Of a DNA stretch of 64,000 nt, positions 1-21,986 are shown in pieces. How positions within the stretch are numbered: position 1 is the first letter of the stretch; the number at the start of each line of letters is the position of its first letter. This stretch comes from Escherichia coli (GTDB lineage: Bacteria; Pseudomonadota; Gammaproteobacteria; Enterobacterales; Enterobacteriaceae): the NCBI RefSeq assembly GCF_044647545.1, contig NZ_CP172818.1; one strand, given 5' to 3'. A program made the position numbers and the translations under genes. The notes under the pieces are model-generated. The model made no database searches, had not been told where the DNA came from, and saw only the letters and a list, made by a program, of their open reading frames with translations.

Positions 1-213
1 CAATATTAACGCGCCAAAACGGCGACGTGTTTTCTCTCCCAGATGAACAAATTCAATCTCAAGTGGTAGCGGCAGGACATCGTTCATTAACACATCCCAT
101 AGAGAGTCGAGATCGCGTACTTTATCTTTTGCCAGACCAAAGGTTTGGCTAAAGTCGCGATAAAAATCCTCCTGACTCTCAATCTCATCAAAATCAAAGG
201 TATAAATATTCAT
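1..213 (-). CDS. yhcO: barstar-like protein YhcO, N-terminal part (3' end runs off the window start)
   Basis: Reverse-strand ATG at 211-213; translation [21 protein letters not shown]... open to position 1; position downstream of aaeB fits K-12 order. Confidence 0.6.
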
Positions 214-304
214 CTGTTGCCACCGTCACGTTTCGCGGCGAGTTCTGCCGTTCATTGCTAAGTATAGCCATGAAAAAACCGACGCTTTTGGCGTCGGTTT
301 TGAC

Positions 305-2272
305 TTAACTATCGGTCAACGCATGTTGATACTTATGGAGCATACCCGTAAGCCGATGTACTGGTTCCGTCACCTGCGGTGGCGCTTGCCAGATGCGTAG
401 CTTTTCCTGGTAGATTTCCAGTTCTTCCAGCAACTGGCCAAAGTACCGACGACGTTTATCATCGCTACGGGCAGATATCACATGGTCTGCTGTGCGGCGC
501 ATTTGCCGGTGAAACGCCGATAAATCCTCGTTAACCGGGATCGGCGCATCACGCAGGCGCTGGTGCGCGATAATCATCGTCAGTGCCAGGCGAAATTTCG
601 GCAAATCCCCTGGGAACTTATTCATCAGCAAAAACAGCTGCTGATAAAGTGCCGGGAGGTGATTCTCTTTACGACGTGCCACATTGGTAGTCATCGCGGA
701 AACAGCGGCAGAAACAAACTGATTAAGCAGTACACGTCCAGTCCTGTCGCGCGATTTATCCCGCACCAGCAAAATAACGGTGAACGCGAGCACACAGCCG
801 ACGATTTGCCCTAATGCGCTGTCGAGAAACTGACTGAAATGGAAAGTCATCGGGTTATCCAGCACGATAATATTTATGGTGCTGGCCAGCGCCCCCATCG
901 AGCCCAGTCGCCGTTTCTGTACTTCTATACCGAGGAAAAATCCCAGCACTGCCAGGCTAATACACAGCAGCAACATGCTCTGTTGAGTATTAGGGATAAT
1001 CACCAAAAAGTAGAGCAGCCCTAACGGCAGCGCGGCCAGCGTCCCGTAGATAAAGTCGATCGCCACCATGCGTGGATTTGGCAAACGCATTGCCAGTGAC
1101 GTCACTACCGCAATCATCACCATTGCACCACTGCCGGAAGTCCAGCCCGTCCACAGCCAGAAAAGCGTCCCCAGAATGCAGGAAAGTGTGGTTCGCCAGA
1201 AGTTAACCATCGCATGATGACGTTCGGCTGACTCTACTTTGACTTCCGGTTCGCCTTGCAGGATCTCTTCTTCGGTGGCGTTGATTTTTGTGTTACTGAT
1301 AACGCCGCGCTTGAGAAGCTGATAACGCGTTGCCGCCGCGACCCAGCTATAAATGGTAACAGGCGTTTCCCGTTCCCCGGTCCAGGCGATCACTCTCCGC
1401 AGGCGTTTGAGCTGCTTGTGGACGTCCTGCGCGGTTTCTACCGGCGTGTCAAAAAATTCGCGGAAAGTATCAGTGATCAATTCCGGGCGCGTATTCTGAA
1501 TAAGATAAGTTTCGCAGGATTGTGTAATCAGCGTCAGCGATAGCGTATTGATCGCTTTTAAACGTCGATTGGCCCGCGCCCAGCGGGAAGATTCCATATT
1601 CAGGTTGCTGCGCATACCTTGTAACGCCGTAGTACGTCGCACCAGATCGCCCCAGGCTTTATCGACAACTTCACCATCGCCATGTTTGATACAGAGTTGC
1701 ATTAATTGATATTGCGCGACCAGCAAACTTTCCAGCTCTCGATCCACTTCTTGTTTGATCGATCGCGGAGAAAAGAGCAAATCCGCCATAATTGCACACA
1801 CAATACCGATAACGATCTCGCTACAACGTTCGACGGCAAACTGCGGCGTAAGCAATGGTTCCGGCTGAATAGTGATCACAATGATCAGCGCGGTATAACC
1901 TGCCAGCCCCCACGCATACGAGTTTTCTATTCGTACCAGCGAGGATATCCAGGTACAAAAACCGGCCCAGATACAGCACACCAGAATCATCAATAATGGT
2001 GCGCGGATCATCGCAATGATGATTACCAGTCCGGCAATACAGCCAATAAATGTGCCGATGATGCGCAAAAAGCCACGATAGCGAATGGCGCCAGAATACG
2101 GTTCACCTCCCGCAGCAAAGGCCGGACCGGCGGCAACAATCGCCGCTGTCAGTACCGCCCAGCGTGGCGTTTCCAGCTGGAAGTGAAAGCCAACAAACAG
2201 CGCCAGTACAATGGCGGTCGCCAGTTTTACCGCAAAGCGAATATGTTGATTAGCAATGGAGAAAATACCCAT
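305..2272 (-). CDS. aaeB: p-hydroxybenzoic acid efflux pump subunit AaeB
   Basis: 655 aa ORF; membrane protein; aaeXAB arrangement with divergent LysR regulator. Confidence 0.9.
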
Positions 2273-2277
2273 CGTGA

Positions 2278-3210
2278 TTAACCAAACTCACGCAGGCGAT
2301 GGGCCATTTTACGGAAGAACGAATCCTGGCTTTCGTCGCGATCTTGTTTGCCAGTGACCACCACTGTAGCAGTGGTGCCCGCAGGCCAGATGTTCTCTTG
2401 CTGGTTGTCGAGACGAATACGTACCGGAACACGTTGCGCCAAACGTACCCATTCAAGGTTAGAGTCGATGGTCGCCATCCCTTTGTCGTCACGCGTGCTG
2501 CTGGCGTTGGTGACCCCAGCGGCAACACTATCAACAGTCCCTTTCAGCACTTTGTTACTGCCAAGCGGCGTGATCTCCGCACGATACCCAGGGCGCACCC
2601 CTTCCAGCTTGGTTTCTTCCATATAGGCCAGTACATAGAAAGAGTTCTGTTTCACCAGCGCAACCGCCGTTGATCCACGGGTAATAAACTCACCGGTATA
2701 GACGTTGAGGTTGGTCACCCAGCCATCTGCTGGCGCGCGGATGACTGTACGTTCAAGATCCAGTTTTGCCAGATCGCGGGTCGCCTGCGCTTTCGCTAAC
2801 TGATGCAGAACCGTTTGTAGTACGTTGTTGGCCTGGTCGATCTCTTCGCGAGACATCGCCTGCACACCGAGACGGTTACGACGTCCGGCCTCCTGGCGTT
2901 TCTCCTGTGCCAGTACCTGATAATAAGCAACATCGGCTTGCGCTTCCTCAAGCGCCTTTTGATAGCGCGGCTGGTCGATGATGAACAGTACCTGTCCTTT
3001 TTTCACCAGCTGGTTATCATGAACATTCACCTGGGTGATAAGTCCAGAAACGTCCGGCGCGATCGCAACGACGTCAGCGCTAAAGCGCGCGTCACGCGTC
3101 CAGGGGGATTCGGTGTAATAGACCCAGGCATTAAAAATTGCGATGAAGGCCAGAATGACTAATACGACCGTGATGGCCGTACGGGAGAATTTTCTTATTA
3201 GTGTTTTCAC
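2278..3210 (-). CDS. aaeA: efflux pump membrane-fusion subunit AaeA
   Basis: 310 aa ORF immediately upstream of aaeB on same strand; HlyD-like profile. Confidence 0.9.
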
Positions 3211-3217
3211 TTCAACC

Positions 3218-3421
3218 TCAAACGAACAGTCGCGATATCAAATAAAACAAGCAGCAATAGAGCGCGGTGTTGAACAACGCCGGATGCCAGACAAAGTCGT
3301 AGATACCTGTTGGCACAAGTACCCGGCGCACCAGCCAGAAAATCGCCAGTGATAAAAGCAATTCGAAAAATATCGGTGGGAAGGACAGCCCAAACACCAC
3401 GATAACGGGAAACAGACTCAT
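3218..3421 (-). CDS. aaeX: small membrane protein AaeX
   Basis: 67 aa hydrophobic ORF ([16 protein letters not shown]...) inside the 90 aa track ORF; start trimmed to the internal Met. Confidence 0.8.
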
Positions 3422-3603
3422 GTTGACCTTGGTTGTATAGAGAGAGCAGGCGTTATTATTTTCAGCATCTGTCGCCGCAGAGAAGGGCATGGAAAGCCGG
3501 GCGAGAGCAACATTGCTGTAGATTGATATTTAATATATTAGCGTAACTGTTATGCTGTTATCTATATTATGTGATCTAAATCACTTTTAAGTCAGAGTGA
3601 ATA

Positions 3604-4533
3604 ATGGAACGACTAAAACGCATGTCGGTGTTTGCCAAAGTAGTTGAATTTGGCTCTTTTACCGCCGCCGCCAGACAGCTACAGATGAGCGTTTCGTCCA
3701 TCAGTCAGACGGTGTCAAAACTGGAAGATGAGTTGCAGGTAAAGCTGTTAAACCGTAGCACACGCAGCATTGGCCTGACCGAAGCCGGTAGAATTTACTA
3801 CCAGGGCTGCCGTCGGATGCTCCATGAAGTGCAGGATGTTCATGAGCAACTGTATGCCTTCAATAACACCCCCATCGGGACGCTGCGCATTGGCTGTTCT
3901 TCAACTATGGCACAAAATGTTCTCGCCGGGCTGACAGCAAAAATGCTGAAAGAATACCCAGGTTTGAGCGTCAATCTGGTTACCGGAATTCCTGCCCCCG
4001 ACCTGATTGCCGATGGTCTGGATGTGGTGATCCGCGTCGGCGCGTTGCAGGATTCCAGCCTGTTTTCCCGCCGTCTGGGCGCGATGCCGATGGTGGTGTG
4101 CGCCGCGAAAAGCTATCTCACACAATACGGCATACCGGAAAAACCCGCCGATTTGAGTAGTCATTCATGGCTTGAATACAGCGTGCGGCCCGACAATGAA
4201 TTTGAACTGATCGCACCGGAAGGGATCTCGACTCGCCTGATCCCACAAGGAAGATTTGTGACTAATGATCCGATGACGCTGGTGCGCTGGCTGACGGCGG
4301 GTGCCGGGATCGCCTACGTGCCGCTGATGTGGGTGATCAACGAGATCAATCGTGGGGAGCTGGAGATCCTGCTGCCGCGTTATCAGTCAGATCCACGCCC
4401 GGTTTATGCGTTATATACCGAAAAAGATAAGCTGCCGCTGAAGGTACAAGTCGTGATCAACTCGCTAACGGATTATTTTGTTGAGGTCGGTAAATTGTTT
4501 CAGGAGATGCACGGGCGCGGGAAAGAGAAGTAA
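3604..4533 (+). CDS. aaeR: LysR-family transcriptional activator AaeR
   Basis: 309 aa ORF; N-terminal HTH (FAKVVEFGSFTAAARQLQMSVSSISQTV); divergent from aaeXAB. Confidence 0.9.
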   Translation: MERLKRMSVFAKVVEFGSFTAAARQLQMSVSSISQTVSKLEDELQVKLLNRSTRSIGLTEAGRIYYQGCRRMLHEVQDVHEQLYAFNNTPIGTLRIGCSSTMAQNVLAGLTAKMLKEYPGLSVNLVTGIPAPDLIADGLDVVIRVGALQDSSLFSRRLGAMPMVVCAAKSYLTQYGIPEKPADLSSHSWLEYSVRPDNEFELIAPEGISTRLIPQGRFVTNDPMTLVRWLTAGAGIAYVPLMWVINEINRGELEILLPRYQSDPRPVYALYTEKDKLPLKVQVVINSLTDYFVEVGKLFQEMHGRGKEK

Positions 4534-4570
4534 TTAATATTGTACTGTTACGTAGTACAAACCTGTGCCA

Positions 4571-4622
4571 ACGGGTTCCCCTCCCCCTAACCCCAGAGGG
4601 GCGAGGGGACCGTTCGTACACG
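4571..4622. terminator. GC-rich imperfect palindrome between convergent aaeR and tldD (candidate bidirectional terminator or BoxC-like repeat)
   Basis: cgggttcccctccccct aaccccag aggggcgaggggaccg forms an imperfect stem of about 16 bp. Confidence 0.4.
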
Positions 4623-4660
4623 GAGAAGGATTAATTATCCTTCTGAAAATACTGAAATTA

Positions 4661-6121
<1,461 letters not shown>

Positions 6122-6151
6122 TTAGTTACTGCAGTAGAGGTTTTTACGGCT

Positions 6152-6187
6152 GCCGGATGCGGCGTGAACGCCCTGTCCGGCCTACGG
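6152..6187. repeat. REP (repetitive extragenic palindrome) element
   Basis: gccggatgcggcgtgaacgccctgtccggcctacgg matches the classic REP consensus; lies between tldD and yhdP. Confidence 0.7.
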
Positions 6188-6259
6188 TTATGTTCTGGCT
6201 CGTTGGCCTTTGGCAACGATTATCCTATGAGATTGGGGCAATTACGCGCCCTCGTCAAA

Positions 6260-9200
6260 TCATTGCGCTTTTTCTTTACGCGGTTGTCGCAACACTTCGT
6301 TGATTTGCGGATCGTCCAGCGGACCCGAAATGTGATAGCGCAAAATGGAGACTTTGCTCCACAGCGGTCCCAGCACTTTACTGGCGGCAAACACTGCCGC
6401 GCCAACAATGGGGTTAACCGCAAAGGCCGCAGCCACACCCACCGTCGCAGAAATCTCTGGTGCGACAACCGCTTCCATATTCAGGTCGCGACGTACCAGA
6501 TTTACCGACCCTTTCATAGCGATGTCCGCTTCCAGGCCATCCACCAGCGTGTCGTCGGTGTGCATAACGCCGTCTTTAATCCACGCGGTGCTGCGAATGG
6601 AGTCAAAATAGAACCCTTCGCCAAAAGTGTCTCTGAAATCAAAACGCAGCTTACGCATCAGGGCATCTACGCTCAATAAGCGCAGCAATTGCCCGGCATG
6701 TCCGGTATTGATTTCGGTAATTTCGCCTTTACCCAGTTGAGTATGAATGATGCCATTCAACGTCGCCTCATCTGGCTGCCAGGGTGCTTTGCGCCAGTGT
6801 AAATCGTAATCCACATTAAATGACGACTGGCGTATGGGCGTCGTGACACCAAAAAATTCTGCGGCGGCATCAATTTTCTGCCCGCGCAGTTTTCCTTTCA
6901 GCGAGGTACGTTCATTCCCCGGATTGTTAACCCATTCACCATCGGCAGTGAGCCGCGAAAAACCAGTATCAATCAGTCCATTAGTCAGCGTTAACGTATC
7001 GCCAGAAATGGTGATATCACTGTCAATGCGACCGAATTTTTGCCCCCAGAACCAGCACTCTGCGCATCGTATTTGTGCGTCTGGCCAGCCACGGAAGTTA
7101 ATGCGTTCCGTTGTCGGGAAAGGTGATGACGGCGTTGAATCACCAAGAGTTTTCGCCACGCTTGGGTTGTAATAAAGATATTTGATATTCGCCAGCCACG
7201 GTGCGTTATTACGCATCGCCAGCGTGGCGTTGATTTCACGCCCTTGCGCCTCAACCTGGGTGCCATTTGCCGTCGGTTGCGAAACAATACTCAGGTTATT
7301 CCATTGCTGATTTCCCAGCGACAACATAGGCGTACGTAACGTTATGTGTTGTGGGAAACTCGCTGCACCACCGACACTCTCCGCCGCGCCTTTCTGGAAC
7401 AGGGCCAGCCACTCGGCACCATTCATCGGCGGCATATTGAGTTCAACGCCACTTTGTTCCGGCAACGGCGGGAGCGTTTTACTGTCTGCCGCCCAAATAG
7501 CACGGTCGAGCGTCAGCTTTTGACCAAGCAACCAGCGGCTATTGAAATGGTTATCTGCACCAGCCTGTCCGGTTAACTCAAAGCTGTTGAGATTGCCATC
7601 AACCTTAACGTTTACCGGCAGTGGTTCACCCGCAGGTTTGGCTAACGGTGAAGGTAAGTGACTGCTCACATTCTTCAAATCGCCGTTTAGCTCTACGTTA
7701 TAGGTCGCGCCAGCATGATAAGGCAGATCAATGCCCACTTTACCATCCCACGCCACGCTGCCACTTAATGCTTCGTTCACCGCTTCAGGCAGAACGCCGG
7801 TTTTCGCTGGTTGCCAGTTACCGTTGAGATTCACCGCGACCTGGTAGGCTTTTGCCCCTTCTTTGGTGGAAAAATCCACGTTCAACGGCTGATTAAACCA
7901 GCTTGCTGTCAGTGGTTCACTTTGCAGATCGCCATTAATAAAGCTGAATTTCCCGCTCAAATTTTTCAGGGTGCTGTCGAGTGGTTTGATAAACAGACTG
8001 TTATTACGCAGCGTCACTTCACCTTTCGCGGTTACCAGTTCGCCGTTCAGCGGAATATCGAGATGTAAGCGAGCATTCACATCGCCGTCGAGCTGGAGTT
8101 CTTGCAGGGTCGCCCCCAGAGAATCTTTCAGCGGTGTCTCATCAAAGTAAGGGCCGACGGCTTTACCCGGGCCTTTAATGTCAGCGTCAATCAGCAGTTT
8201 TTCTTTTGAGTAGTCAGGGATCACTGCGGTGAGATTACTCGCACGCACGCCGCCCAGATTAACGCCATCGGTTTTCATCCATAAACCGTCGTTAATAAAG
8301 TCCAGTTCAATATCAAGGTTAGTTAATGCAGGCCAGTCCGGCTGGAAGGCAAACTTCGCGTTGCGCAGCGGCACCAGCACTTCAAACTGACCTTCATTGT
8401 GTTTATAGGGGAAGAGTTGCGGATTGCCACCATAAACCAGCGTCGCGTTATCCGCTTCACCGCCCTGAATCGCGCCACTTAAGTAATCAACCAGGTCTTT
8501 ACCCATCAAGTTTTCCGGGAAATAGCGCCAGGCTTGTGAACCATCATCGGTACTGATGCCAGCCAGAATCCCCAGCCAGGGTTCATCGTTAGCAGGTTGC
8601 AGGTAACGAAAATCGCCGCGCGCATGGACGGCTTTGGCTTTAACGTCAATATTACGTCCATCCAGCTGGAAACCTTTGTCATTGTTCAGCCAGCTTATCG
8701 TTGCCTGGCCGTCGGCGATTTCCAGTGGTGCACGGAATACCGTTTCGTAAGGCATCTTTGCCTGCTTCATCGACGCGGTAAGCAAACCATTTTCTACGCT
8801 GCCGGAAAGCGTCCCGGAGAAGTGTTCCGCACCCGGTAATAATTTCCATTGCTTCCAGGCCAGATCGCTCCACGATGCCTGAAAACGGGTCTTGTCTGCC
8901 GCCTGAAGCGGGATATCCAGCGCCAGAGTGTTAATCTTGCCGCTCGGTTGTGTGGAGCGCCAAACATCACCCAGTGCAGGTGAAAGTTTCGCGACCAGCG
9001 GGCGTACGCCCTCCAGGCCTGCCAGCTCCAGATTACTGGCGCGAATCCGGAGTTCGTCACTGCGTTTATTGTCTTTGCCGCCAACGTCCTGTTTCGGTAT
9101 CCAGGCCAGCGTCAATGCTCCGCTCGGCCAGGGTTTGCCGTCCATCGTGATCCGTGTATCGGGAATAGAGAACTGCCATCCCGGATTTTCACGCGTAATA

Positions 9201-10060
9201 TGCGCAGTCAGATTATCCACCGACAGCGTATGTGTTTCCTTCTCGCCCAACCAGCTGGCACCGCCCTGTTTCAGCCAGACGTCACCGCCGGTTACATCGC
9301 CTTTGTCGATCGTCATCCAGCCTTCAAGGGAGAACTGTGCCGTTTCCAGCGCAATATTGTCCTGCATCCATTTACCGAGCCACGGCTTCAGGTCGATGTC
9401 ATCCGCCTGGAGCCAGACGCGACCATTGCTTAACAACCCCTCATCATCGCGCAAATCCATACGCACCTGCATCACGCCGTGCTGTCCGGTAAGGCTGGAG
9501 AGGCTTACCAGGCCTTCCGCACGGTGTCGACGTGGATCGTTCAGCCAGGTGAGCTGTGGGATCGCCAGCTCGGCGCGCTGACTGGATGGCGTCAGGAAAC
9601 TGACTTCACTGTCGCGGAGATCGAAATGGTCAAATTGACGAAGAAACAGATCGCTGATGTGACTGGCTTCCAGGCTATCATTACCACCGCCGCTGGTGAT
9701 AGGAGTGTTGGTGCGAAAGCGCAGCTGCCAGAAAGTGAGGTCGCGAAACTGCCAGCGCATATGTAACAGGCTCTGCCAGACATCCAGCGCCAGAGTAACG
9801 CGTTTAACCGAAAATTCGCCGCCATCTTTTAGTTCTGCACGGATGTCGTGCGCTTCAAGCGTCGGACCAAAATTCTGCCAGCTGGCTGAGAGCTGACTGG
9901 CTTCTACCGGCATGCCAGTCGCGGATTCTATTTTGTTGAGGATTTCCGGACGCCAGGCGTCAAGATGCGGTAAAGCAATACGCAGGCCGCTAACCAGCAG
10001 GGCAGCGATCACAACGAGCGCAGCTCCAGTAAGCAGTAAAATCCCCGGCAATCGCCTCAC
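6260..10060 (-). CDS. yhdP: AsmA-family envelope protein YhdP
   Basis: 1266 aa ORF; N-terminal signal anchor; length and position match K-12 YhdP. Confidence 0.9.
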   Translation of the reverse strand: MRRLPGILLLTGAALVVIAALLVSGLRIALPHLDAWRPEILNKIESATGMPVEASQLSASWQNFGPTLEAHDIRAELKDGGEFSVKRVTLALDVWQSLLHMRWQFRDLTFWQLRFRTNTPITSGGGNDSLEASHISDLFLRQFDHFDLRDSEVSFLTPSSQRAELAIPQLTWLNDPRRHRAEGLVSLSSLTGQHGVMQVRMDLRDDEGLLSNGRVWLQADDIDLKPWLGKWMQDNIALETAQFSLEGWMTIDKGDVTGGDVWLKQGGASWLGEKETHTLSVDNLTAHITRENPGWQFSIPDTRITMDGKPWPSGALTLAWIPKQDVGGKDNKRSDELRIRASNLELAGLEGVRPLVAKLSPALGDVWRSTQPSGKINTLALDIPLQAADKTRFQASWSDLAWKQWKLLPGAEHFSGTLSGSVENGLLTASMKQAKMPYETVFRAPLEIADGQATISWLNNDKGFQLDGRNIDVKAKAVHARGDFRYLQPANDEPWLGILAGISTDDGSQAWRYFPENLMGKDLVDYLSGAIQGGEADNATLVYGGNPQLFPYKHNEGQFEVLVPLRNAKFAFQPDWPALTNLDIELDFINDGLWMKTDGVNLGGVRASNLTAVIPDYSKEKLLIDADIKGPGKAVGPYFDETPLKDSLGATLQELQLDGDVNARLHLDIPLNGELVTAKGEVTLRNNSLFIKPLDSTLKNLSGKFSFINGDLQSEPLTASWFNQPLNVDFSTKEGAKAYQVAVNLNGNWQPAKTGVLPEAVNEALSGSVAWDGKVGIDLPYHAGATYNVELNGDLKNVSSHLPSPLAKPAGEPLPVNVKVDGNLNSFELTGQAGADNHFNSRWLLGQKLTLDRAIWAADSKTLPPLPEQSGVELNMPPMNGAEWLALFQKGAAESVGGAASFPQHITLRTPMLSLGNQQWNNLSIVSQPTANGTQVEAQGREINATLAMRNNAPWLANIKYLYYNPSVAKTLGDSTPSSPFPTTERINFRGWPDAQIRCAECWFWGQKFGRIDSDITISGDTLTLTNGLIDTGFSRLTADGEWVNNPGNERTSLKGKLRGQKIDAAAEFFGVTTPIRQSSFNVDYDLHWRKAPWQPDEATLNGIIHTQLGKGEITEINTGHAGQLLRLLSVDALMRKLRFDFRDTFGEGFYFDSIRSTAWIKDGVMHTDDTLVDGLEADIAMKGSVNLVRRDLNMEAVVAPEISATVGVAAAFAVNPIVGAAVFAASKVLGPLWSKVSILRYHISGPLDDPQINEVLRQPRKEKAQ

Positions 10061-10127
10061 CCGTCACTCCTTGTCTGCTAAAAATGTGACTCAAAAACCC
10101 TTTGCCGGATGGCGGCCCAGCATCTGT

Positions 10128-11597
10128 TTACATCATTACGACGTCAAACTGCTCCTGGTTATAGAGCGGTTCAATTTGTACTTTAACCTGTTTGCCAACG
10201 AAAATTTCCACTTCCGCCAGCGAGTGTGACTCTTCGCCTTTCAAGGCTTCAGCTACTGCCGGAGAAGCATAGACCAGGAAACGGTCGGAGTCGTAAGCAT
10301 GGTGGACACGAACAATCTCGCGCATGATTTCATAGCATACCGTTTCCACGGTTTTCACCGTTCCGCGACCGTGGCAGGTTGGGCATTCGTTACACAGTAC
10401 GTGCTCAATGCTTTCGCGGGTGCGTTTACGCGTCATCTCCACCAGCCCCAGCGCCGAAAAACCATTAACGCTGGTTTTCACCCGATCTTTGCTCAACGCC
10501 TGCTCCAGCGAGTGCAGCACGCGGCGGCGGTGATCTTCATTATTCATATCGATGAAATCAATAATGATAATCCCGCCCAGATTACGCAACCGTAACTGGC
10601 GAGCGATAGCCTGCGTCGCTTCAATATTGGTATTGAAAATGGTGTCGTCCAGATTGCGATGACCGACAAACGCCCCGGTATTGATGTCCACGGTGGTCAT
10701 CGCTTCGGTCTGGTCGATAATCAGATAGCCACCGGATTTCAGTTCTACTTTGCGTTCCAGCGCCCGCTGGATTTCGTTTTCGACATCAAAGAGATCGAAA
10801 ATCGGCTGGCGTCCGGTGTAATGCTCCAGCTTGCTGGTCATCTCGGGAATGTACTCCGAGGTAAACTCCAGCAATGCTTCGTAAGTCAGGCGTGAGTCAA
10901 CGCGAATGCGGTCGAGTTCGGCGTCGGCGAAATCACGCAGAACACGCTGCGCCAGCGCCAGTTCGCCGTACAGCTGATAACGGGTCTGTGGGCGCTTTTT
11001 ACGCTCCATAACTTTGGTCCAGACGCGTTTCAGATAAGCGGCATCGGAGGCCAGTTCAGCCTCGCCAACCCCTTCCGCTGCGGTACGGATGATAAACCCG
11101 CCCTGCTCGTCGCAATACTCTGCGACCACTTTTTTCAGGCGTTCACGTTCTGATTCGCTTTCAATTCGTTGGGAAACCCCAACGTGAGAAGCCCCTGGCA
11201 TAAATACCAGATAGCGAGAAGGCAGCGTGATATCGGTGGTCAGGCGCGCACCCTTAGTGCCAAGCGGATCTTTCACCACCTGCACCATCAGATCTTGCCC
11301 CTGACGGACCAGCTCCGAGATGTCGCGCACCGTGAATTGCTTTTGTTCTTCACCCGCCACACATTCGGTGTGCGGCATGATGTCGGATGCATGAAGAAAC
11401 GCGGCTTTATCCAGCCCAATATCTACAAAAGCCGCCTGCATACCCGGAAGTACACGACTTACACGACCCTTGTAGATATTGCCTACTATTCCGCGTCGCG
11501 CCTCACGTTCAATATGAATTTCCTGCAGAATACCGCCATCAATATACGCCACTCGCGTTTCCGAAGGCGTTACGTTTACTAACAATTCAGCCGTCAT
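10128..11597 (-). CDS. rng: ribonuclease G
   Basis: 489 aa from internal Met ([17 protein letters not shown]...); track ORF is extended 6 codons upstream. Confidence 0.9.
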
Positions 11598-12180
11598 GTT
11601 TATCCCTTTTCTCACGCAGTGCGTTAAAATTACTTAATAATTCATACGTTTCAACCAGCGGTAAGCCGACTACGGCGTGATAGCTGCCATTTATCTTCCT
11701 GACAAAACAGCCACCCAGCCCCTGAATACCGTATGCACCTGCTTTATCTAACGGTTCACCGCTGGCGACATAGCCCGCGATGTCTTCGTCTGTTAACGTT
11801 CTGAAAGTCACATCGGTGACCACCAGGCAATCGAGAATGTGCTGGCTGTCGGCCAACGCCACTGCCGTCATTACCTGATGGGTCTGACCCGATAATTTGC
11901 GCAACATCTGCACCGCATGCTCTGCGTCGCGCGGTTTCTCCAGCACTTCTCCATTCAGGATAACGATAGTATCCGCACCCAGCACCGGGAGATCCTGCGC
12001 CGTTTGCGCGACACCCGCCTGTGCTTTCTCGCGCGCCAGACGCACAACATATTGCTGCGCGCTCTCCTGCGGCTGACGCTGCTCCTCAATGCCCGTAACA
12101 ATACGTTCAAAGGTTACGCCAAGTTGCGCAAGTAACTCCTGACGACGCGGAGAACCGGAAGCTAAATACAGAGAAGTCAT
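11587..12180 (-). CDS. yhdE: Maf-like nucleoside triphosphate pyrophosphatase
   Basis: 197 aa ORF; Maf family; immediately downstream of mreD. Confidence 0.85.
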
Positions 12181-12188
12181 AGAAACCT

Positions 12189-13780
<1,592 letters not shown>

Positions 13781-13845
13781 AAGTTATGCGTATTCTCGTA
13801 TCAGACCAGGCAGGGTAAACAGACGCTTCCCCTGCCTGCATCCGA

Positions 13846-15015
<1,170 letters not shown>

Positions 15016-15193
15016 TTACAAATCTCTGCCTGAGTCCAGAAAGGCTTAATGCATCAGCAGCATTCCTCGCCTGTTTGCAACCGCGTAAGGTCATTCATCT
15101 GCATATGTGCTGCAACAATCTGGCGAGCAGACAAGCACACTCCCATGAGACGCAGCGCGCGTTATTCTACGTGAAAACGGATTAAACGGCAGG

Positions 15194-17134
15194 TTAAACC
15201 GAGTATCTTTGTGAATATTTTTTCACGTTAGTATCAAGTGGCTGTGAGGACGCGAAAAAATCCCCTTGCCCACCTGTAACACCGCGCTGAATCAGGGTCT
15301 GCCACTCGCTTCGCGAACGCACGCCGGTGGCGTAAACCTGGGTGCTGGTCCCGGAGCAGGCTTCCACCAGGCTTTGAACCAGCAGCTGGTTCTCCGTTCG
15401 CTTCTCAATGTTTCTGACCAGCCCCGGATGGAGCTTGAGTAACTCAACATTAAGTTCTTTGATCCAACTGGTGCTTACCAGCGTCAAACCAGCCTGGTTG
15501 ACGGCTACCCGTACCCCTAAAGCATTCACTAAACGAATAACAGGTTGTAAGCGACTGATATGTTGACCAACATCGGCCTCTGCAAGTTCAATAATTATGC
15601 GTCTTCGTTGCGATTTTTCACATTGCATTAACGTATCGCGCAGCCAACGCTGAAAACGCGGGCGAATCAGCGACTCAACGGTAACCTGAATCGCCAGATT
15701 TTCCTCTGGCCAGTAACGCAATAGTGGAATAAGACGGCTGATTAGCAGGCGGTCATACTCTTCCGATAAACCAAACTGCAAGACCATCGGCATATACTCT
15801 GCCGAGCTAACCTCTTCATTACCATCGAAGATGCGGCACATGAGTTCACGATGATGAACCCGGCCTTCGCGAGTAACCGCCGGTTTTTGATAAAGGCGCG
15901 GGCCGCCGCGACTCAGCATTTGCTCGATAAGCGTACGCCAGCGAACATTACCGCGTCCTTTTTCAGGCAACGAGTCATCGTAAATAGCCCAGCTATTGCC
16001 GCCCTGCAATCCCGCATTACGCGTGGCAGACTCTGCATGTTCCATTACCTGCTCGGTATCCTGACCACTACGCCAGGCACAGATACCAATGTGGATCATA
16101 TCGTCGCGATCGAGCATTTTATTGTTCGGCAAGGTATCGACGGCTTTGATTAACTGACTGGCGATGCTCTCTGCCTCTTTTAACGTTCGGTGCGGTAACA
16201 GCGCAGCAAAATCACTGCGGTGGTAACGCGCCAGCAGTGCGCCAGGGTAGCGCATCATAAATGTCGATAGCAGATTCGTCAGAGAGAAGAACTGTTCTTC
16301 AACCTGGCTGTGCCCCCAGGTATCACTCAACATATTGAAATCCGGCAGACGAATCATCATCACGATCCCGTGGGTACCTACTTTCTCTTGATCTTCCAGT
16401 AACGTTGCTAACTGATTATCGAAAAAGAGGCGGTTATTGAGGCCGGTTTTCATGTCCTGGGCGGCATAAGAGCGGATCAGCGTATCAAGACGGCTGTGTT
16501 GTTCGCGTGCGTTCTGAATTTCACAAAGCAGCGTATCCAGCGCACTGCTGGTTCTGGGCGGCCATTCATAGATGGTTCCCAACACATTAGAGCCACGCTC
16601 ACCGTTTAAGATACGAGTAGCCCGGGTTTCCAGCAATTCTTGCCCGGCAAGTTGCCGTTGTAACCAGCGTACCGCCAGGAAGAGCATAAGAATGATAAAG
16701 CCAATCGCCCCCGTGAGCGGCGCGGTAGTCATTAAAGAATGGAAATAGTTGCCCATCGGATCCTGATAAACCAGACGCAGCGACATCCCCGGATGCTTTA
16801 TCAACGGAACGCTCAGTTCACGAAATAGATCGTTGGTGCCAACCGGACGATAACTACCATTTCTGGCCAGGGTATAAACCTGTTTATCACCATGCAGCAG
16901 GTCTACACGAACGATATCTGCTGACATCATTAATTCGGTAATTTGTGGCCTTAATGCGCTGAAGTCATTCGACACAAGATGGGTATCAATCGCCGTCGCC
17001 ACCGCCTGAACACGATGACTAAACTTATACTGAATGGCGTTGTAGAAACTTAGCGAACAGCCCAACAAAGTCACAAAAATTGTTAACCCGGTGAGCAGCG
17101 TAACAAAGGCCGAAAATTTCGTCGTTAATCTCAT
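15194..17134 (-). CDS. csrD: CsrB/CsrC decay regulator CsrD (degenerate GGDEF-EAL protein)
   Basis: 646 aa ORF; two N-terminal TM segments then GGDEF/EAL-like domains. Confidence 0.9.
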   Translation of the reverse strand: MRLTTKFSAFVTLLTGLTIFVTLLGCSLSFYNAIQYKFSHRVQAVATAIDTHLVSNDFSALRPQITELMMSADIVRVDLLHGDKQVYTLARNGSYRPVGTNDLFRELSVPLIKHPGMSLRLVYQDPMGNYFHSLMTTAPLTGAIGFIILMLFLAVRWLQRQLAGQELLETRATRILNGERGSNVLGTIYEWPPRTSSALDTLLCEIQNAREQHSRLDTLIRSYAAQDMKTGLNNRLFFDNQLATLLEDQEKVGTHGIVMMIRLPDFNMLSDTWGHSQVEEQFFSLTNLLSTFMMRYPGALLARYHRSDFAALLPHRTLKEAESIASQLIKAVDTLPNNKMLDRDDMIHIGICAWRSGQDTEQVMEHAESATRNAGLQGGNSWAIYDDSLPEKGRGNVRWRTLIEQMLSRGGPRLYQKPAVTREGRVHHRELMCRIFDGNEEVSSAEYMPMVLQFGLSEEYDRLLISRLIPLLRYWPEENLAIQVTVESLIRPRFQRWLRDTLMQCEKSQRRRIIIELAEADVGQHISRLQPVIRLVNALGVRVAVNQAGLTLVSTSWIKELNVELLKLHPGLVRNIEKRTENQLLVQSLVEACSGTSTQVYATGVRSRSEWQTLIQRGVTGGQGDFFASSQPLDTNVKKYSQRYSV

Positions 17135-17285
17135 CCTTGTGTTAACTCCGATAGTGAGGAAGCGGGCATACTAGCAAATCAGATTTATCTCGCAATTTAT
17201 TGCGCTTCATCGGCTTTGCTTTTCCATTAGCGAGTATAGTCTTCAGAAATTATTTTCCAATCCATCATGCACATGAGGACCACTT

Positions 17286-18260
17286 ATGCAGGCGTTACTT
17301 TTAGAACAGCAGGACGGCAAAACTCTCGTATCGGTACAGACACTGGACGAAAGTCGCCTGCCGGAGGGCGATGTCACGGTTGATGTTCACTGGTCGAGCC
17401 TGAACTACAAAGATGCGCTGGCAATTACCGGTAAGGGAAAAATCATCCGTAATTTTCCGATGATTCCTGGGATCGATTTTGCCGGAACTGTACGCACCAG
17501 CGAAGATCCGCGTTTTCATGCCGGTCAGGACGTATTACTCACTGGCTGGGGCGTTGGTGAAAACCACTGGGGTGGGCTGGCGGAACAGGCGCGAGTGAAA
17601 GGTGACTGGCTGGTTGCCATGCCACAAGGGCTGGACGCGCGTAAAGCAATGATTATCGGTACTGCCGGTTTTACCGCCATGCTGTGTGTGATGGCGCTGG
17701 AAGATGCCGGTGTTCGCCCGCAGGATGGGGAGATTGTCGTGACGGGTGCCAGTGGTGGCGTCGGCAGTACCGCCGTGGCGCTGCTGCATAAGTTGGGTTA
17801 TCAGGTCGTTGCCGTTTCCGGTCGCGAAAGTACCCATGAATATCTGAAAAGTTTAGGTGCCAGCCGTATTCTCCCTCGCGATGAGTTTGCCGAATCCCGT
17901 CCTCTGGAAAAACAAGTCTGGGCAGGGGCAATTGACACCGTTGGCGACAAAGTGCTGGCAAAAGTGCTGGCGCAAATGAATTACGGCGGCTGCGTGGCGG
18001 CCTGTGGTCTGGCGGGTGGTTTTACTCTGCCAACCACGGTCATGCCATTTATTCTGCGTAATGTCCGTTTACAGGGGGTAGATTCAGTGATGACGCCACC
18101 AGCACGCCGCGCACAAGCCTGGCAGCGACTGGTCGCCGATTTACCGGAATCATTCTATACCCAGGCGGCAAAAGAGATATCTCTGGCAGATGCACCGAAG
18201 TTTGCCGAGGCCATCATTAATAACCAGATCCAGGGTCGCACGCTGGTGAAGGTTAACTAA
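17286..18260 (+). CDS. acuI: acrylyl-CoA reductase AcuI (YhdH), MDR-family oxidoreductase
   Basis: 324 aa ORF; GASGGVGS nucleotide-binding motif. Confidence 0.9.
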   Translation: MQALLLEQQDGKTLVSVQTLDESRLPEGDVTVDVHWSSLNYKDALAITGKGKIIRNFPMIPGIDFAGTVRTSEDPRFHAGQDVLLTGWGVGENHWGGLAEQARVKGDWLVAMPQGLDARKAMIIGTAGFTAMLCVMALEDAGVRPQDGEIVVTGASGGVGSTAVALLHKLGYQVVAVSGRESTHEYLKSLGASRILPRDEFAESRPLEKQVWAGAIDTVGDKVLAKVLAQMNYGGCVAACGLAGGFTLPTTVMPFILRNVRLQGVDSVMTPPARRAQAWQRLVADLPESFYTQAAKEISLADAPKFAEAIINNQIQGRTLVKVN

Positions 18261-18683
18261 CCATTTAGCAAGGATTAATAAGAGAGGGAACTCATTTTGA
18301 AATCATTATTCAATCGGTTAACGGGAAAAGCGGTTAGCCGGACAGCTTTCGTCGAACATCTTGGTCATGAAGTTGTACAACATCATCCAAACTGGAAAGT
18401 CATGATTTCGACTGACCATAAATTGATGCGCATTGATACTCACCAAACGGTAAATCACTCTTGATGATCTACAAATAACAAAAATAATATAAAAAAAACA
18501 TTTAAAAAAAAAAACGCCTCGCTGGATTTTGCCTGGGAAGACTTAACGATGAGTTAATTATCTTGTTTGCTGAAGATGGTAGCGAAACCATGCGCTATCT
18601 GATGCGCTACGAAGTGACCATTGACCGCGAACAAGCCATCAATAATTTGAAGCAAATATTGCCGGAAGTTTCGGCTGAAATCG

Positions 18684-19400
18684 TTGATACAGGCGCAAAC
18701 GCTGGAAAATTTGCCGTTATCTCCCCAGGGGTCTTTAGACCCCCCTCTTGTTCCTTTTACCTTTTCGCCAACCCCCCCCCAAATTTTTATCCCCCCCCCC
18801 AAAAAAAATTTTTTTTCCCCACAAAAAAAACCACCCAAAACCCCACCCATAATAAAAAAAAAAAAAAAAAATTCCCCCCTGCAAGAACCACCCCTCCAAA
18901 AAAAAAAATTTATCCCCCCCAAACTCTCTTTTCCCCGGAAAAAACCCTTCATCAACCCACCCCCCCAGATAAAAAAAATTGGGGATGATGGTAAAAATTC
19001 AAAAACACCAAACGCCTTTCCCCAAAAATTTTTTTTTTTTTTTAGCGAAAAAATCAAAAAACAAAAAAACGCACTGCCGCCTGACAAAACAGTTTACCTT
19101 CTGCAAAATGGGGGGAATAATCTGATTTTATTTGATTACAAATTAACCACTTAAACCTATTTCATACTGAGCATTATCAGTCGGTTGATTTTGCGTGCTT
19201 TAGCATTCACATCTATCCAGACGATGCAGTGAAAATTGGGCAATCCCCAGCAACCGCTGCGTAATGTCGTCTATCTTGTCGCGATCCTGGCATCCCTACA
19301 TTATTTGTGGTCTGTGAAGATTATCTCATTGCAGCCCCTCATCTTCGCAGGGCTGGCTTTACAGCTTTTCACCTTACGTTATAAGAAGTTCCGTCGATGA
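18684..19400 (+). pseudogene. disrupted MsrQ/YedZ-like membrane protein reading frame; in-frame stops at 19152 (TAA) and 19230 (TGA); 5' two-thirds is low-complexity sequence
   Basis: One frame translates ...[101 protein letters not shown], resembling the MsrQ C-terminal half as recalled from memory. Confidence 0.3.
18740..19130. repeat. homopolymer-dominated, G-poor low-complexity tract (probable assembly or sequencing artefact, or synthetic filler)
   Basis: Runs include A18, T16, A12, C10, C9; very few G on the top strand; complexity degrades gradually from both flanks. Confidence 0.8.
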
Positions 19401-19804
19401 TGGCGCTAATTTCGTGAATTGTGCGGCTTGTTGCAAATTACACGGTGTTGAAGGTTATTTACATGTTAGCTGTTGATTATCTTCCCTGATAAGACCAGTA
19501 TTTAGCTGCCAATTGCTACGAAATCGTTATAATGTGCGACCTCGTCCTCCCTGACGCAGTTTTTGCGCTGCGGAAAAGGTGACATTGGCGCAACGAAGGT
19601 ATATTTTGTTTTTTGCCGGAGGATAGCAGCAGATCGCTGCACAATGTCCGTCAAGTCTAACATTGACACTCTGGGGCAAAATAGACCGGCGTCCCGGCCT
19701 GCTGGAATTTATCGCTATGCATACAGCTGTCGGGGCATACGCTTTACAGACGGCGGTGAAACGCCTGTCACAATCACACTAAACAAAGAGTACGGAACCC
19801 ACTC

Positions 19805-20275
19805 ATGGATATTCGTAAGATTAAAAAACTGATCGAGCTGGTTGAAGAATCAGGCATCTCCGAACTGGAAATTTCTGAAGGCGAAGAGTCAGTACGCATT
19901 AGCCGTGCAGCTCCTGCCGCAAGTTTCCCTGTGATGCAACAAGCTTACGCTGCACCAATGATGCAGCAGCCAGCTCAATCTAACGCAGCCGCTCCGGCGA
20001 CCGTTCCTTCAATGGAAGCGCCAGCAGCAGCGGAAATCAGTGGTCACATCGTACGTTCCCCGATGGTTGGTACTTTCTACCGCACCCCAAGCCCGGACGC
20101 AAAAGCGTTCATCGAAGTGGGTCAGAAAGTCAACGTGGGCGATACCCTGTGCATCGTTGAAGCCATGAAAATGATGAACCAGATCGAAGCAGACAAATCC
20201 GGTACTGTGAAAGCAATTCTGGTCGAAAGTGGACAACCGGTAGAATTTGACGAGCCGCTGGTCGTCATCGAGTAA
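19805..20275 (+). CDS. accB: biotin carboxyl carrier protein of acetyl-CoA carboxylase
   Basis: 156 aa; [28 protein letters not shown]...; biotinylation motif [10 protein letters not shown]. Confidence 0.97.
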
Positions 20276-20285
20276 CGAGGCGAAC

Positions 20286-21635
20286 ATGCTGGATAAAATT
20301 GTTATTGCCAACCGCGGCGAGATTGCATTGCGTATTCTTCGTGCCTGTAAAGAACTGGGCATCAAGACTGTCGCTGTGCACTCCAGCGCGGATCGCGATC
20401 TAAAACACGTATTACTGGCAGATGAAACGGTCTGTATCGGCCCTGCTCCGTCAGTAAAAAGTTATCTGAACATCCCGGCAATCATCAGCGCCGCTGAAAT
20501 CACCGGCGCAGTAGCAATCCATCCGGGCTACGGCTTCCTCTCCGAGAACGCCAACTTTGCCGAGCAGGTTGAGCGCTCCGGCTTTATCTTCATTGGCCCG
20601 AAAGCAGAAACCATTCGCCTGATGGGCGACAAAGTATCCGCAATCGCGGCGATGAAAAAAGCGGGCGTTCCTTGCGTACCGGGTTCTGACGGCCCGCTGG
20701 GCGACGATATGGATAAAAACCGCGCCATTGCTAAACGCATTGGTTATCCGGTAATTATCAAAGCCTCCGGCGGCGGCGGCGGTCGCGGTATGCGCGTAGT
20801 GCGCGGCGACGCTGAACTGGCACAATCCATCTCCATGACCCGTGCGGAAGCGAAAGCTGCTTTCAGCAACGATATGGTTTACATGGAGAAATACCTGGAA
20901 AATCCTCGCCACGTCGAGATTCAGGTACTGGCTGACGGTCAGGGCAACGCTATCTATCTGGCGGAACGTGACTGCTCCATGCAGCGCCGCCACCAGAAAG
21001 TGGTCGAAGAAGCACCAGCACCGGGCATTACCCCGGAACTGCGTCGCTACATCGGCGAACGTTGCGCTAAAGCATGTGTTGATATCGGCTATCGCGGTGC
21101 AGGTACTTTCGAGTTCCTGTTCGAAAATGGCGAGTTCTATTTCATCGAAATGAACACCCGTATTCAGGTAGAACACCCGGTTACTGAAATGATCACCGGC
21201 GTTGACCTGATCAAAGAACAGCTGCGTATCGCTGCCGGTCAACCGCTGTCGATCAAGCAAGAAGAAGTTCACGTTCGCGGCCATGCGGTAGAGTGCCGTA
21301 TCAACGCCGAAGATCCGAACACCTTCCTGCCAAGTCCGGGCAAAATCACCCGTTTCCATGCACCTGGCGGTTTTGGCGTGCGTTGGGAGTCTCATATCTA
21401 CGCGGGCTACACCGTACCGCCGTACTATGACTCAATGATCGGTAAGCTGATTTGCTACGGTGAAAACCGTGACGTGGCGATTGCCCGCATGAAGAATGCG
21501 CTGCAGGAACTGATCATCGACGGTATCAAAACCAACGTTGATCTGCAGATCCGCATCATGAATGACGAGAACTTCCAGCATGGTGGCACTAACATCCACT
21601 ATCTGGAGAAAAAACTCGGTCTTCAGGAAAAATAA
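20286..21635 (+). CDS. accC: biotin carboxylase subunit of acetyl-CoA carboxylase
   Basis: 449 aa from [29 protein letters not shown]; track ORF starts further upstream, overlapping accB. Confidence 0.97.
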
Positions 21636-21651
21636 GACTGCAAAAGCGCTC

Positions 21652-21679
21652 AAAAGGCCGGATTTTCCGGCCTTTTTTA
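21652..21679 (+). terminator. rho-independent terminator after accC
   Basis: aaaaggccggattttccggcctttttt: GC stem followed by a T-run. Confidence 0.8.
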
Positions 21680-21743
21680 TTACTGGGGATTGATATCTAC
21701 ATAAGGTACAATCCTCGTTCTCTTCACCCATCAGGGACAAAAA

Positions 21744-21986
21744 ATGGACACTCGTTTTGTTCAGGCCCATAAAGAGGCGCGCTGGGCGCTGGGGCTGACC
21801 CTTTTGTATCTGGCGGTATGGTTAGTAGCCGCTTACTTACCTGGCGTTACCCCCGGTTTTACCGGCTTTCCACGCTGGTTTGAGATGGCTTGCATCCTGA
21901 CGCCGCTGCTGTTTATTGGACTGTGCTGGGCGATGGTGAAATTTATCTATCGCGATATCCCGCTGGAGGATGACGATGCAGCTTGA
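21744..21986 (+). CDS. yhdT: small inner-membrane protein YhdT
   Basis: 80 aa hydrophobic ORF overlapping the panF start. Confidence 0.8.
   Translation: MDTRFVQAHKEARWALGLTLLYLAVWLVAAYLPGVTPGFTGFPRWFEMACILTPLLFIGLCWAMVKFIYRDIPLEDDDAA

What the first reader, a model, noticed from the sequence alone, without database searches (positions are those of the whole stretch)
18740..19130. Homopolymer-dominated, G-poor low-complexity tract in the acuI-accB spacer
About 400 bp are built almost entirely of A, C and T homopolymer runs (A18, T16, A12, C10, C9), with G nearly absent from the top strand. Complexity decays gradually from normal-looking sequence on both flanks (about 18700 and 19140) into the middle. 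All six frames give poly-K/P/F/G translations, including the three long track ORFs here. Nothing else in the window looks like this. The likeliest explanation is an unresolved assembly join of low-quality read ends, or a placeholder or engineered filler, so the true sequence here is unknown; shorter A-runs (A8, A11) at 18488-18517 may belong to the same problem.
Basis: seen in the sequence. Interest (0 to 1): 0.7.

Follow-up and report, generated by a model that had tools for sequence, protein, structure and literature searches.

The report
Garbled assembly patch inside a gene
The odd A/C/T homopolymer stretch is almost certainly not real E. coli DNA: it is a blurred, mis-reconstructed copy of an ordinary gene that is intact at this spot in near-identical strains, so it is a data-quality problem and not biology.

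Summary
All 11 homopolymer runs of 8 nt or more in the 64 kb lie in 18491-19043, and G is 20 of 338 bases in the core.

It is not a spacer feature. In ST648-type E. coli whose flanks match the window 100%, an 831-nt DUF1444-like gene (WP_000838294.1) lies between acuI and accB. The window carries that gene with two garbled stretches:
- A, 18440-18512: 73 nt stand for 214 true nt.
- B, 18732-19069: 338 nt stand for 384 true nt.

Stretch B is collinear with the true sequence (z = 9-13 against shuffles). A Gaussian blur of about 2-2.5 nt applied to the true sequence, with G down-weighted, reproduces it at 74% identity and puts the long runs in the right places.

Left edges decay gradually and right edges are abrupt. 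None of 5,426 complete E. coli genomes has the tract. 667 carry the intact long allele, and three sampled from different strains have no indels.

The garbled ORF is already in RefSeq as WP_400165336.1, on one 4.50-Mb contig.

The window's other private differences also sit where K-12-type and ST648-type genomes differ in structure. This points to a backbone-limited consensus or polishing artefact, a published failure mode.

Verdict: artefact (at least 0.95). The true sequence can be inferred. Interest is low.

The parts
18297..18439 (+). Intact 5' 143 nt of the DUF1444-like gene (TTG start). This is the same part that survives in K-12 as pseudogene yrdF.
   Evidence: Identical to CFSAN061771 and ECONIH1. 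K-12 annotation of yrdF.
18440..18512 (+). Garbled stretch A: 73 nt stand for 214 true nt of the gene. Errors are almost all deletions of G, C and T, with A kept. The first error is a GGG deletion exactly at the long/short allele breakpoint. The stretch ends abruptly, at a near-repeat (GCCTGGCTGGAT / GCCTCGCTGGAT) in the true sequence.
   Evidence: (retention A 39/46, T 16/31, C 11/36, G 4/41).
18513..18731 (+). Near-correct middle part of the gene (219 nt). It has one T deletion at 18543 and G>T at 18710 and G>C at 18725, the onset of the second decay.
18732..19069 (+). Garbled stretch B, the core of the finding: 338 nt stand for 384 true nt. The true nt are the last 254 nt of the gene (stop maps to about 18955) plus about 130 nt downstream. 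The stretch is collinear with the truth, blurred into A/C/T runs and depleted of G. The right edge is abrupt.
   Evidence: z 9.4-12.7; retention A 82%, C 72%, T 56%, G 21%; blur model 74% identity, score 177 against 45 raw and 22±18 for controls.
19070..19804 (+). Correct sequence up to the accB start (19805). It includes the YedZ/cytochrome-b-like pseudogene remnant at about 19098-19400.
   Evidence: 100% identity to ECONIH1 and CFSAN061771. Annotation; coordinates.
18563..18988 (+). Spurious 141-aa ORF created by the garbling. Its N-terminus is real gene; its C-terminus is poly-P/K junk. It has been deposited as RefSeq WP_400165336.1 / UniRef100_UPI0037DC4295.
18554..19087 (-). Spurious 177-aa antisense ORF (poly-F/G/K) made possible by the low complexity.
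   Evidence: Not found in the protein collection.
18684..19154 (+). Spurious 156-aa ORF (poly-P/K) across stretch B.
   Evidence: Not found in the protein collection.

Best explanation
The tract is not the strain's DNA. It is a reconstruction artefact in a deposited assembly.

**Shown**
- The window is an ST648-type E. coli. Its acuI-accB interval carries the 'long' allele, an 831-nt DUF1444-like gene.
- 56% of that gene, plus about 130 nt downstream, is rendered as two degraded stretches.
- Stretch B behaves like the true sequence passed through a low-pass filter of about 2-2.5 nt with G under-weighted. At each position the locally commonest base wins. This turns A-, C- or T-rich neighbourhoods into A18, C10, T15 and similar runs, and removes the isolated Gs.

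**Inferred mechanism**
- The chromosome was built or polished on a backbone that lacked this segment. That backbone could be a short-allele, K-12-type structure or a draft that dropped the segment.
- The missing insert was then written by a consensus or polishing step from noisy reads that were out of register with one another.
- A majority vote over mis-registered reads amounts to a blur.
- Later accurate-read polishing could repair only the parts good enough for reads to map: the flanks and 18513-18731.

Probability that the tract is an artefact of some kind: at least 0.95. Probability of this particular route: about 0.6.
For: 1. **Flanks versus tract.** There are 0 mismatches in 18.4 kb upstream and 2.6 kb downstream against CFSAN061771 and ECONIH1. 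Inside the tract identity is only about 60%, with a net loss of 188 nt.
2. **Collinearity.** z = 9.4 against mononucleotide shuffles and 12.7 against run-preserving shuffles.
3. **Blur model.** Score 177 and 74% identity, against 45 and 60% for the raw true sequence. Blurred unrelated segments give mean 22, maximum 63. Blur alone cuts G from 20% to about 11.5%, and G is the most isolated base here.
4. **Strand-asymmetric loss.** G is retained 16/77 and C 73/101, p = 9e-12.
5. **Not reproduced elsewhere.** No place in any of the 5,426 complete genomes covers 80% of the query. 667 genomes have the long allele. Three long alleles from different strains have no indels and 2.3% variable sites.
6. 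**Start of the damage.** The first error lies exactly at the long/short allele breakpoint.
7. **Other private differences.** Outside the multi-copy 16S rRNA gene, where there are three G>A differences, every other private difference also sits at a K-12/ST648 structural difference:
   - 6141, beside a REP-array difference.
   - The 8.6-kb island is missing, and the spacer left in its place matches any of 4,003 genomes at 93.2% or less.
   - A hybrid-looking junction at 37610-37614.
   - There are no private SNPs in single-copy DNA.
8. **Contig size.** The contig on record is 4,499,902 bp. Listed relatives are mostly 4.9-5.3 Mb, with one at 4.69 Mb.
9. **Published precedent.** Racon x4 plus Medaka wrote long A/T homopolymers without read support. 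[quoted passage not shown] 6).
Against: - No reads and no assembly metadata are available, so the platform and pipeline are unproven.
- A pileup consensus from both strands should not deplete G much more than C. The asymmetry fits a single-strand read better.
- The blur width does not grow along stretch B. It plateaus at about 2-3 nt, so a simple left-anchored drift model is not supported.
- The near-perfect 219-nt island between A and B needs an extra assumption (partial later polishing).
- The backbone is not K-12 MG1655 itself. The accC-yhdT spacer differs from MG1655 at about 11 positions.
- The published precedent shows A/T runs; this tract also has C runs.
Confidence: 0.6

Rival explanations
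1. This is the same kind of artefact reached by a different route, the first reader's. A de novo assembly stitched contigs together through the low-quality 3' tails of single plus-strand reads. These could be late Sanger trace with broadened peaks, or a poor nanopore read segment. The tails were never corrected.
For: - Both garbled stretches decay gradually 5'>3' on the plus strand and recover abruptly.
- Base loss is strand-specific, G far more than C, as expected from one-strand reads.
- Stretch A ends at a 12-nt near-repeat of the true sequence, which looks like an overlap join.
Against: - It does not explain why the damage starts exactly at the long/short allele breakpoint.
- It does not explain why the window's other private errors cluster at structural-polymorphism sites.
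- It does not explain why an 8.6-kb island present in all nearest relatives is missing.
- A Sanger read that is good for only about 190 nt (18513-18700) is atypical.
- A recent RefSeq accession on a 4.5-Mb contig suggests long-read data (inference).
Confidence: 0.33
2. The tract is real DNA. It would be a strain-specific, locally hypermutated or degenerate remnant of the gene, produced for example by targeted mutagenesis or massive slippage.
For: - The sequence is present in a public RefSeq record.
- No reads were available to disprove it directly.
Against: - There are zero substitutions in about 21 kb of flanking DNA against relatives, yet about 40% divergence and many indels within 338 nt.
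- The change is a smoothing of the sequence toward the locally commonest base. No known mutational process does that.
- No place in any of the 5,426 complete genomes covers 80% of the query, and three sampled natural long alleles are indel-free.
- The tract is absent from 100,044 species representatives.
Confidence: 0.02
3. The tract is a deliberate placeholder or engineered or synthetic filler inserted into the record or the strain.
For: It has low complexity and no coding sense.
Against: - It is collinear with the true gene at z = 9-13, and a blur of the true sequence predicts it. A filler would carry no such signal.
- The left edge decays gradually, with G-only deletions.
Confidence: 0.01

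Closest known systems
Polishing-induced aberrant inserts in long-read assemblies (Racon + Medaka). Source: 'Long-read only assembly of Drechmeria coniospora genomes...', bioRxiv 10.1101/866020 / PMC7500977, Fig. 6.
   Same: Homopolymer-dominated sequence without biological counterpart. The insert is of roughly the correct size. Single-base errors appear near the 5' breakpoint, followed by a continuous aberrant stretch. It arises where the draft lacked a region that the reads contain. Here the size is 338 against 384 nt, the onset is gradual on the left, and the location is a population insertion/deletion site.
   Different: The published case shows A and T runs in a fungal genome and a 10-kb insert. 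Here there are also C runs, G-specific depletion, a 0.4-kb scale, and a demonstrable base-by-base relation to the true sequence. The pipeline of this record is unknown.
Untrimmed low-quality read tails in consensus, for example late Sanger trace with peak broadening (own knowledge, not tested).
   Same: One-directional decay, local smearing into runs, channel- or base-specific loss, approximate length preservation, and abrupt recovery where the next good sequence starts.
   Different: A read tail would not be expected to start at an allele breakpoint or to be accompanied by a missing island. The good stretch before the second decay is only about 190 nt.
K-12 yrdF/yrdE pseudogene locus, the natural 'short allele' between acuI (yhdH) and accB.
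   Same: Same chromosomal site. yrdF equals the first 143 nt of the same gene, and the window's damage begins exactly where yrdF homology ends.
   Different: The short allele is a clean replacement of about 855 nt by about 100 nt, and about 88% of complete genomes have it. The window instead has the long allele in degraded form and none of the sequence unique to the short allele.
Phase-variable homopolymer tracts (contingency loci).
   Same: Long mononucleotide runs within or near coding sequence.
   Different: Contingency loci have one tract, conserved in relatives, that varies in length. Here there are 11 runs in 0.55 kb, none is present in the near-identical relatives compared, and no complete genome covers the tract.

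Membership tests
Assembly/consensus artefact (polishing-type aberrant insert) | Sequence is not reproduced in independent assemblies of near-identical strains | tested here: met
   No place in any of the 5,426 complete E. coli genomes covers 80% of the query. Genomes with 100%-identical flanks have a normal gene. No hit in 100,044 species representatives.
Assembly/consensus artefact (polishing-type aberrant insert) | Aberrant, homopolymer-rich composition, with size and order roughly those of the true sequence | tested here: met
   All 11 runs of 8 nt or more lie here. 338 nt stand for 384 true nt, collinear at z = 9-13. The blur model gives 74% identity.
Assembly/consensus artefact (polishing-type aberrant insert) | Lies where the draft or backbone lacked the region | tested here: inconclusive
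   The first error is at the long/short allele breakpoint. Other private errors lie at structural-difference sites. However, the backbone is unknown and is not MG1655.
Assembly/consensus artefact (polishing-type aberrant insert) | No coherent read support | not testable with these tools
Low-quality single-read tail joined into the consensus | Error rate rises 5'>3' along one strand, then recovers abruptly at the join | tested here: met
   The sliding identity profile shows this twice, in A and in B.
Low-quality single-read tail joined into the consensus | Strand-specific base bias | tested here: met
   G retained 21% against C 72%, p = 9e-12.
Low-quality single-read tail joined into the consensus | A single read carries the tract verbatim, with depth of about 1 | not testable with these tools
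   No reads are available.
Natural phase-variable homopolymer tract (contingency locus) | Tract present in related strains, with length variation | tested here: not met
   The near-identical relatives and three sampled long alleles have ordinary sequence with no indels and a longest run of 6, and no complete genome covers the tract.
Diversity-generating-retroelement-type targeted hypermutation | Adenine-specific substitutions without indels, relative to a template repeat | tested here: not met
   A is the best-retained base (82%), G is the one lost, and there are many indels. I did not look for a reverse transcriptase or a template repeat.
Pfam DUF1444 (PF07285), for the underlying true gene | Significant match to the family profile | tested here: inconclusive
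   Near full-length but weak match, i-Evalue 0.025, residues 29-270 against model positions 15-254 of 264. RefSeq names it 'DUF1444 domain-containing protein' in some records and 'hypothetical protein' in others.

The most novel reading that the evidence does not exclude
The tract is genuine DNA of this isolate. In that case a 0.4-0.6-kb segment of a gene has been locally rewritten into G-depleted A/C/T homopolymer runs that still follow the parental sequence, while the surrounding 60 kb stayed identical to sister strains. That would imply an unknown, highly localised, strand-specific mutational or repair process.
Probability: 0.02. Interest if true: 0.75.

Novelty: not a real feature. Interest (0 to 1): 0.08.

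Why it matters
This matters only as a data-quality flag.

- A public RefSeq E. coli chromosome carries a garbled gene.
- That gene has already produced a nonsense 'hypothetical protein' (WP_400165336.1 / UniRef100_UPI0037DC4295).
- The same record probably lacks an 8.6-kb sugar-utilisation island and has small junction errors elsewhere.
- Pangenome, pseudogene, indel or selection analyses that use this record would score false gene loss and false novel proteins.

The blur test is a cheap way to recognise this class of artefact without reads, provided a close relative is available. It asks whether the oddity equals a smoothed copy of a relative's sequence.

Tried and rejected
1. **Naming the source record.** The exact 141-aa ORF is in the protein collection, but the look-up of encoding contigs returned nothing. 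The accession, platform and pipeline therefore stay unknown.
2. **Exact scans of the GTDB species representatives.** I scanned for a 49-mer of the tract and a 25-mer of the odd accC-yhdT spacer. Both gave 0 hits.
3. **K-12 MG1655 as the backbone.** Rejected, because the spacer differs from MG1655 at about 11 of 110 positions.
4. **Other ST648-specific insertions kept intact.** Finding one would argue against a backbone effect. The test was uninformative: within the 64 kb the DUF1444 allele is the only sequence the window has beyond K-12.
5. **Left-anchored pileup drift.** This model predicts blur that grows along stretch B. It is not supported; sigma jumps to about 2-3 nt and plateaus.
6. **G>A (bisulfite- or deamination-like) conversion.** Rejected. 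Lost Gs become A (18), C (13), T (10) or a gap (20).
7. **Flow-order periodicity (454 / Ion Torrent).** The run order shows no TACG-like cycle on reading, so I did not pursue it.
8. **Foreign insertion or mobile element.** Rejected. The tract aligns only to the resident gene.

Full report
**1. The observation**

Reading 18300-19500 shows the tract as described.
- The 64-kb window has 11 homopolymer runs of 8 nt or more, and all lie in 18491-19043. There are none in the remaining 63.4 kb. About 3 per 64 kb are expected under iid composition.
- G is 30 of 391 bases in 18740-19130 and 20 of 338 in 18732-19069. GC skew reaches -0.91.
- Run lengths are A18, T15 (not 16), A11 (not 12), C10 and C9.
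- The three long ORFs across the tract exist and translate to poly-K/P/F/G.

**2. What lies at this locus in relatives**

- A megablast of 18000-19800 against 5,426 complete E. coli genomes hit 5,425 of them, but none covered 80% or more of the query. The best hits covered 79% in three pieces and spanned 1,989 nt for the query's 1,801 nt.
- In those genomes an 831-nt gene lies between acuI and accB. Examples are CFSAN061771 and ECONIH1, which are among the best hits along with a strain named ST648. The gene is WP_000838294.1, annotated 'DUF1444 domain-containing protein' or 'hypothetical protein'. Pfam gives only a weak, near full-length DUF1444 match, E = 0.025.
- The window's ORF starting at 18297 is the start of this gene.
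- Pairwise alignment and BLAST without low-complexity masking give these results:
  - Window 1-18439 and 19070-21635 match with zero substitutions.
  - 18513-18731 matches except for one T deletion (18543) and two substitutions (18710, 18725).
  - 18440-18512 ('A') and 18732-19069 ('B') are garbled.
- A holds 73 nt where the true sequence has 214. B holds 338 where the true sequence has 384.
- The gene's stop maps to about 18955. In total 56% of the gene lies in garbled sequence.

**3. The tract is a degraded copy of the true sequence**

- A global alignment of B to the true 384 nt scores 46.5. Mononucleotide shuffles give -9.0 ± 5.9 (z = 9.4) and run-preserving shuffles give -49.2 ± 7.5 (z = 12.7).
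- Base retention in B is A 82%, C 72%, T 56% and G 21%. Almost nothing becomes G. G against C retention differs at p = 9e-12.
- In A the errors are nearly all deletions of G, C and T, with A retained. A ends at a jump between two near-identical 12-mers of the true sequence.
- Identity profiles show a gradual decline on the left of both A and B and an abrupt return to 100% on the right, at 18513 and at 19070.
- The key test was a Gaussian blur of the true sequence that takes the locally strongest base.
  - With sigma 2-2.5 nt, G weight 0.6 and T weight 0.8, it yields a sequence that aligns to B at 74% identity, score 177.
  - The unblurred truth scores 45, and blur without weights scores 158.
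  - Blurred unrelated segments score 22 ± 18, maximum 63.
  - The predicted runs fall where A18, C10, A8, T8, A11 and T15 are.
- Blur alone lowers G from 20% to about 11.5%, because G is the rarest and most isolated base in this stretch. The observed 5.3% needs some additional G-specific loss.

**4. Population context**

- The locus has two alleles. 667 of 5,426 genomes carry the long allele, at 97.8% identity or more in the long-allele rows listed. The rest carry a short allele as in K-12, where the remnants are annotated as pseudogenes yrdF and yrdE.
- Three long alleles from different strains (ECONIH1, HS, 2015C-3107) have no indels and 40 variable sites in 1,732 nt.
- A strain whose flanks are identical to ECONIH1 therefore cannot plausibly have diverged about 40%, with many indels, in 0.4 kb.

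**5. The tract is in a public record**

- The exact 141-aa product of ORF 18563-18988 is in NCBI/UniRef as WP_400165336.1 / UniRef100_UPI0037DC4295. It was seen on one contig of 4,499,902 bp.
- The encoding record could not be retrieved.
- A 49-mer of the tract has no exact match in 100,044 species-representative genomes.

**6. Clues to how it arose**

- The first error of A is a GGG deletion at 18440. It falls exactly where long- and short-allele homology ends.
- Correct sequence resumes 20-40 nt before homology to the short allele resumes.
- I listed the window's other differences from its two closest complete relatives and compared the window with K-12. Every K-12/ST648 structural difference in the 64 kb coincides with a private anomaly of the window:
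  - **6141:** a 2-nt deletion 9 nt from a REP-array copy-number difference. It is absent from all complete genomes.
  - **18440-19069:** the DUF1444 allele described above.
  - **21636-21744:** the 8.6-kb sugar island between accC and yhdT, present in all nearest relatives, is missing. In its place is a K-12-type 110-nt spacer with private changes. It matches any of 4,003 genomes at 93.2% or less and has no hit among species representatives.
  - **37610-37614:** three single-C deletions at a junction where K-12 has about 165 extra nt. The window's junction looks like a hybrid of the two forms.
- There are no private SNPs in single-copy DNA. The only others are three G>A differences inside the multi-copy 16S gene.
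- The 4.50-Mb contig is smaller than most of the listed relatives, which are 4.9-5.3 Mb apart from one at 4.69 Mb.
- This pattern is what a backbone-limited (reference-guided or reference-patched) consensus would give. Sequence absent from the backbone is either lost or badly rebuilt.
- A published case documents this failure (bioRxiv 10.1101/866020, Fig. 6). [quoted passage not shown] - A majority vote over reads that are a few bases out of register is a blur. That would explain the fit. This step is inference.

**7. What does not fit that route**

- The G-versus-C asymmetry and the one-directional decay are more natural for a single one-strand read tail.
- The blur width does not increase along B.
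- The good 219-nt island needs partial later polishing.
- MG1655 itself is not the backbone.
- Without reads or metadata the two artefact routes cannot be separated. I put them at about 0.6 and about 0.33.

**8. Readings rejected**

- **Placeholder or engineered filler:** rejected by the collinearity and blur results.
- **Foreign insertion:** rejected, because the tract aligns only to the resident gene.
- **Real hypermutation:** very unlikely, given identical flanks, indel-free natural alleles and a smoothing-type change that no mutational process produces. I keep it at 0.02 only because no reads were seen.
- **DGR-type mutagenesis:** fails on pattern. A is the best-kept base and there are many indels.

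**9. Verdict**

The finding is a real oddity of the record but not of the organism. The true sequence here is, with high confidence, the intact long allele as in ECONIH1 (NZ_CP009859.1:3859640-3860470 plus downstream). Novelty class: not a real feature. Interest is low, apart from flagging the record and its spurious protein.

Noticed in passing
window 21636-21744 (between accC stop and yhdT start): All nearest relatives (100% identical flanks) carry an 8.6-kb sugar-utilisation island here: aldose epimerase, two sugar kinases, an ABC transporter, tagatose-bisphosphate aldolase and a DeoR regulator. The window instead has a K-12-type 110-nt spacer with private changes. The spacer is at most 93.2% identical to any of the 4,003 complete genomes that have a spacer, and no genome matches the junction above 98.5%. 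Either the island was lost by the assembly or this is an unusual natural allele.
   Followed up: partly
window 6141: A private 2-nt deletion (GAGGATTTTTT > GAGGTTTTT) in the tldD-yhdP intergenic region. It lies 9 nt from a REP-array copy-number difference with K-12 and is absent from all 5,426 complete genomes, where the best match is 98.6%.
   Followed up: yes
window 37610-37614: Three private single-C deletions (GGCCTTTCGCTTG > GGCTTTGTTG) just downstream of the distal 5S rRNA gene. At this junction K-12 has about 165 extra nt. The window's junction looks like a hybrid of the two forms.
   Followed up: partly
window 42347, 42687, 42881: Three A-for-G differences inside the 16S rRNA gene, against both ECONIH1 and CFSAN061771. 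They may be variation between rrn copies or a mixed-copy consensus.
   Followed up: no
window 18563-18988: The junk-containing 141-aa ORF is already in public protein databases as 'hypothetical protein [Escherichia coli]', WP_400165336.1 / UniRef100_UPI0037DC4295, seen on one contig of 4,499,902 bp.
   Followed up: partly
window 18261-19804; loci L001, L005, L006, L009, L010: The acuI-accB interval has two alleles in E. coli. An intact DUF1444-like gene (long allele) is in 667 of 5,426 complete genomes. The rest have a short allele whose remnants are K-12's yrdF and yrdE pseudogenes. Downstream, both alleles carry a YedZ/cytochrome-b-like pseudogene fragment.
   Followed up: partly
window 18543: A single T deletion (TTT > TT) inside the otherwise correct middle part of the gene. 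It would frameshift the gene even if A and B were repaired, and is probably part of the same error process.
   Followed up: no
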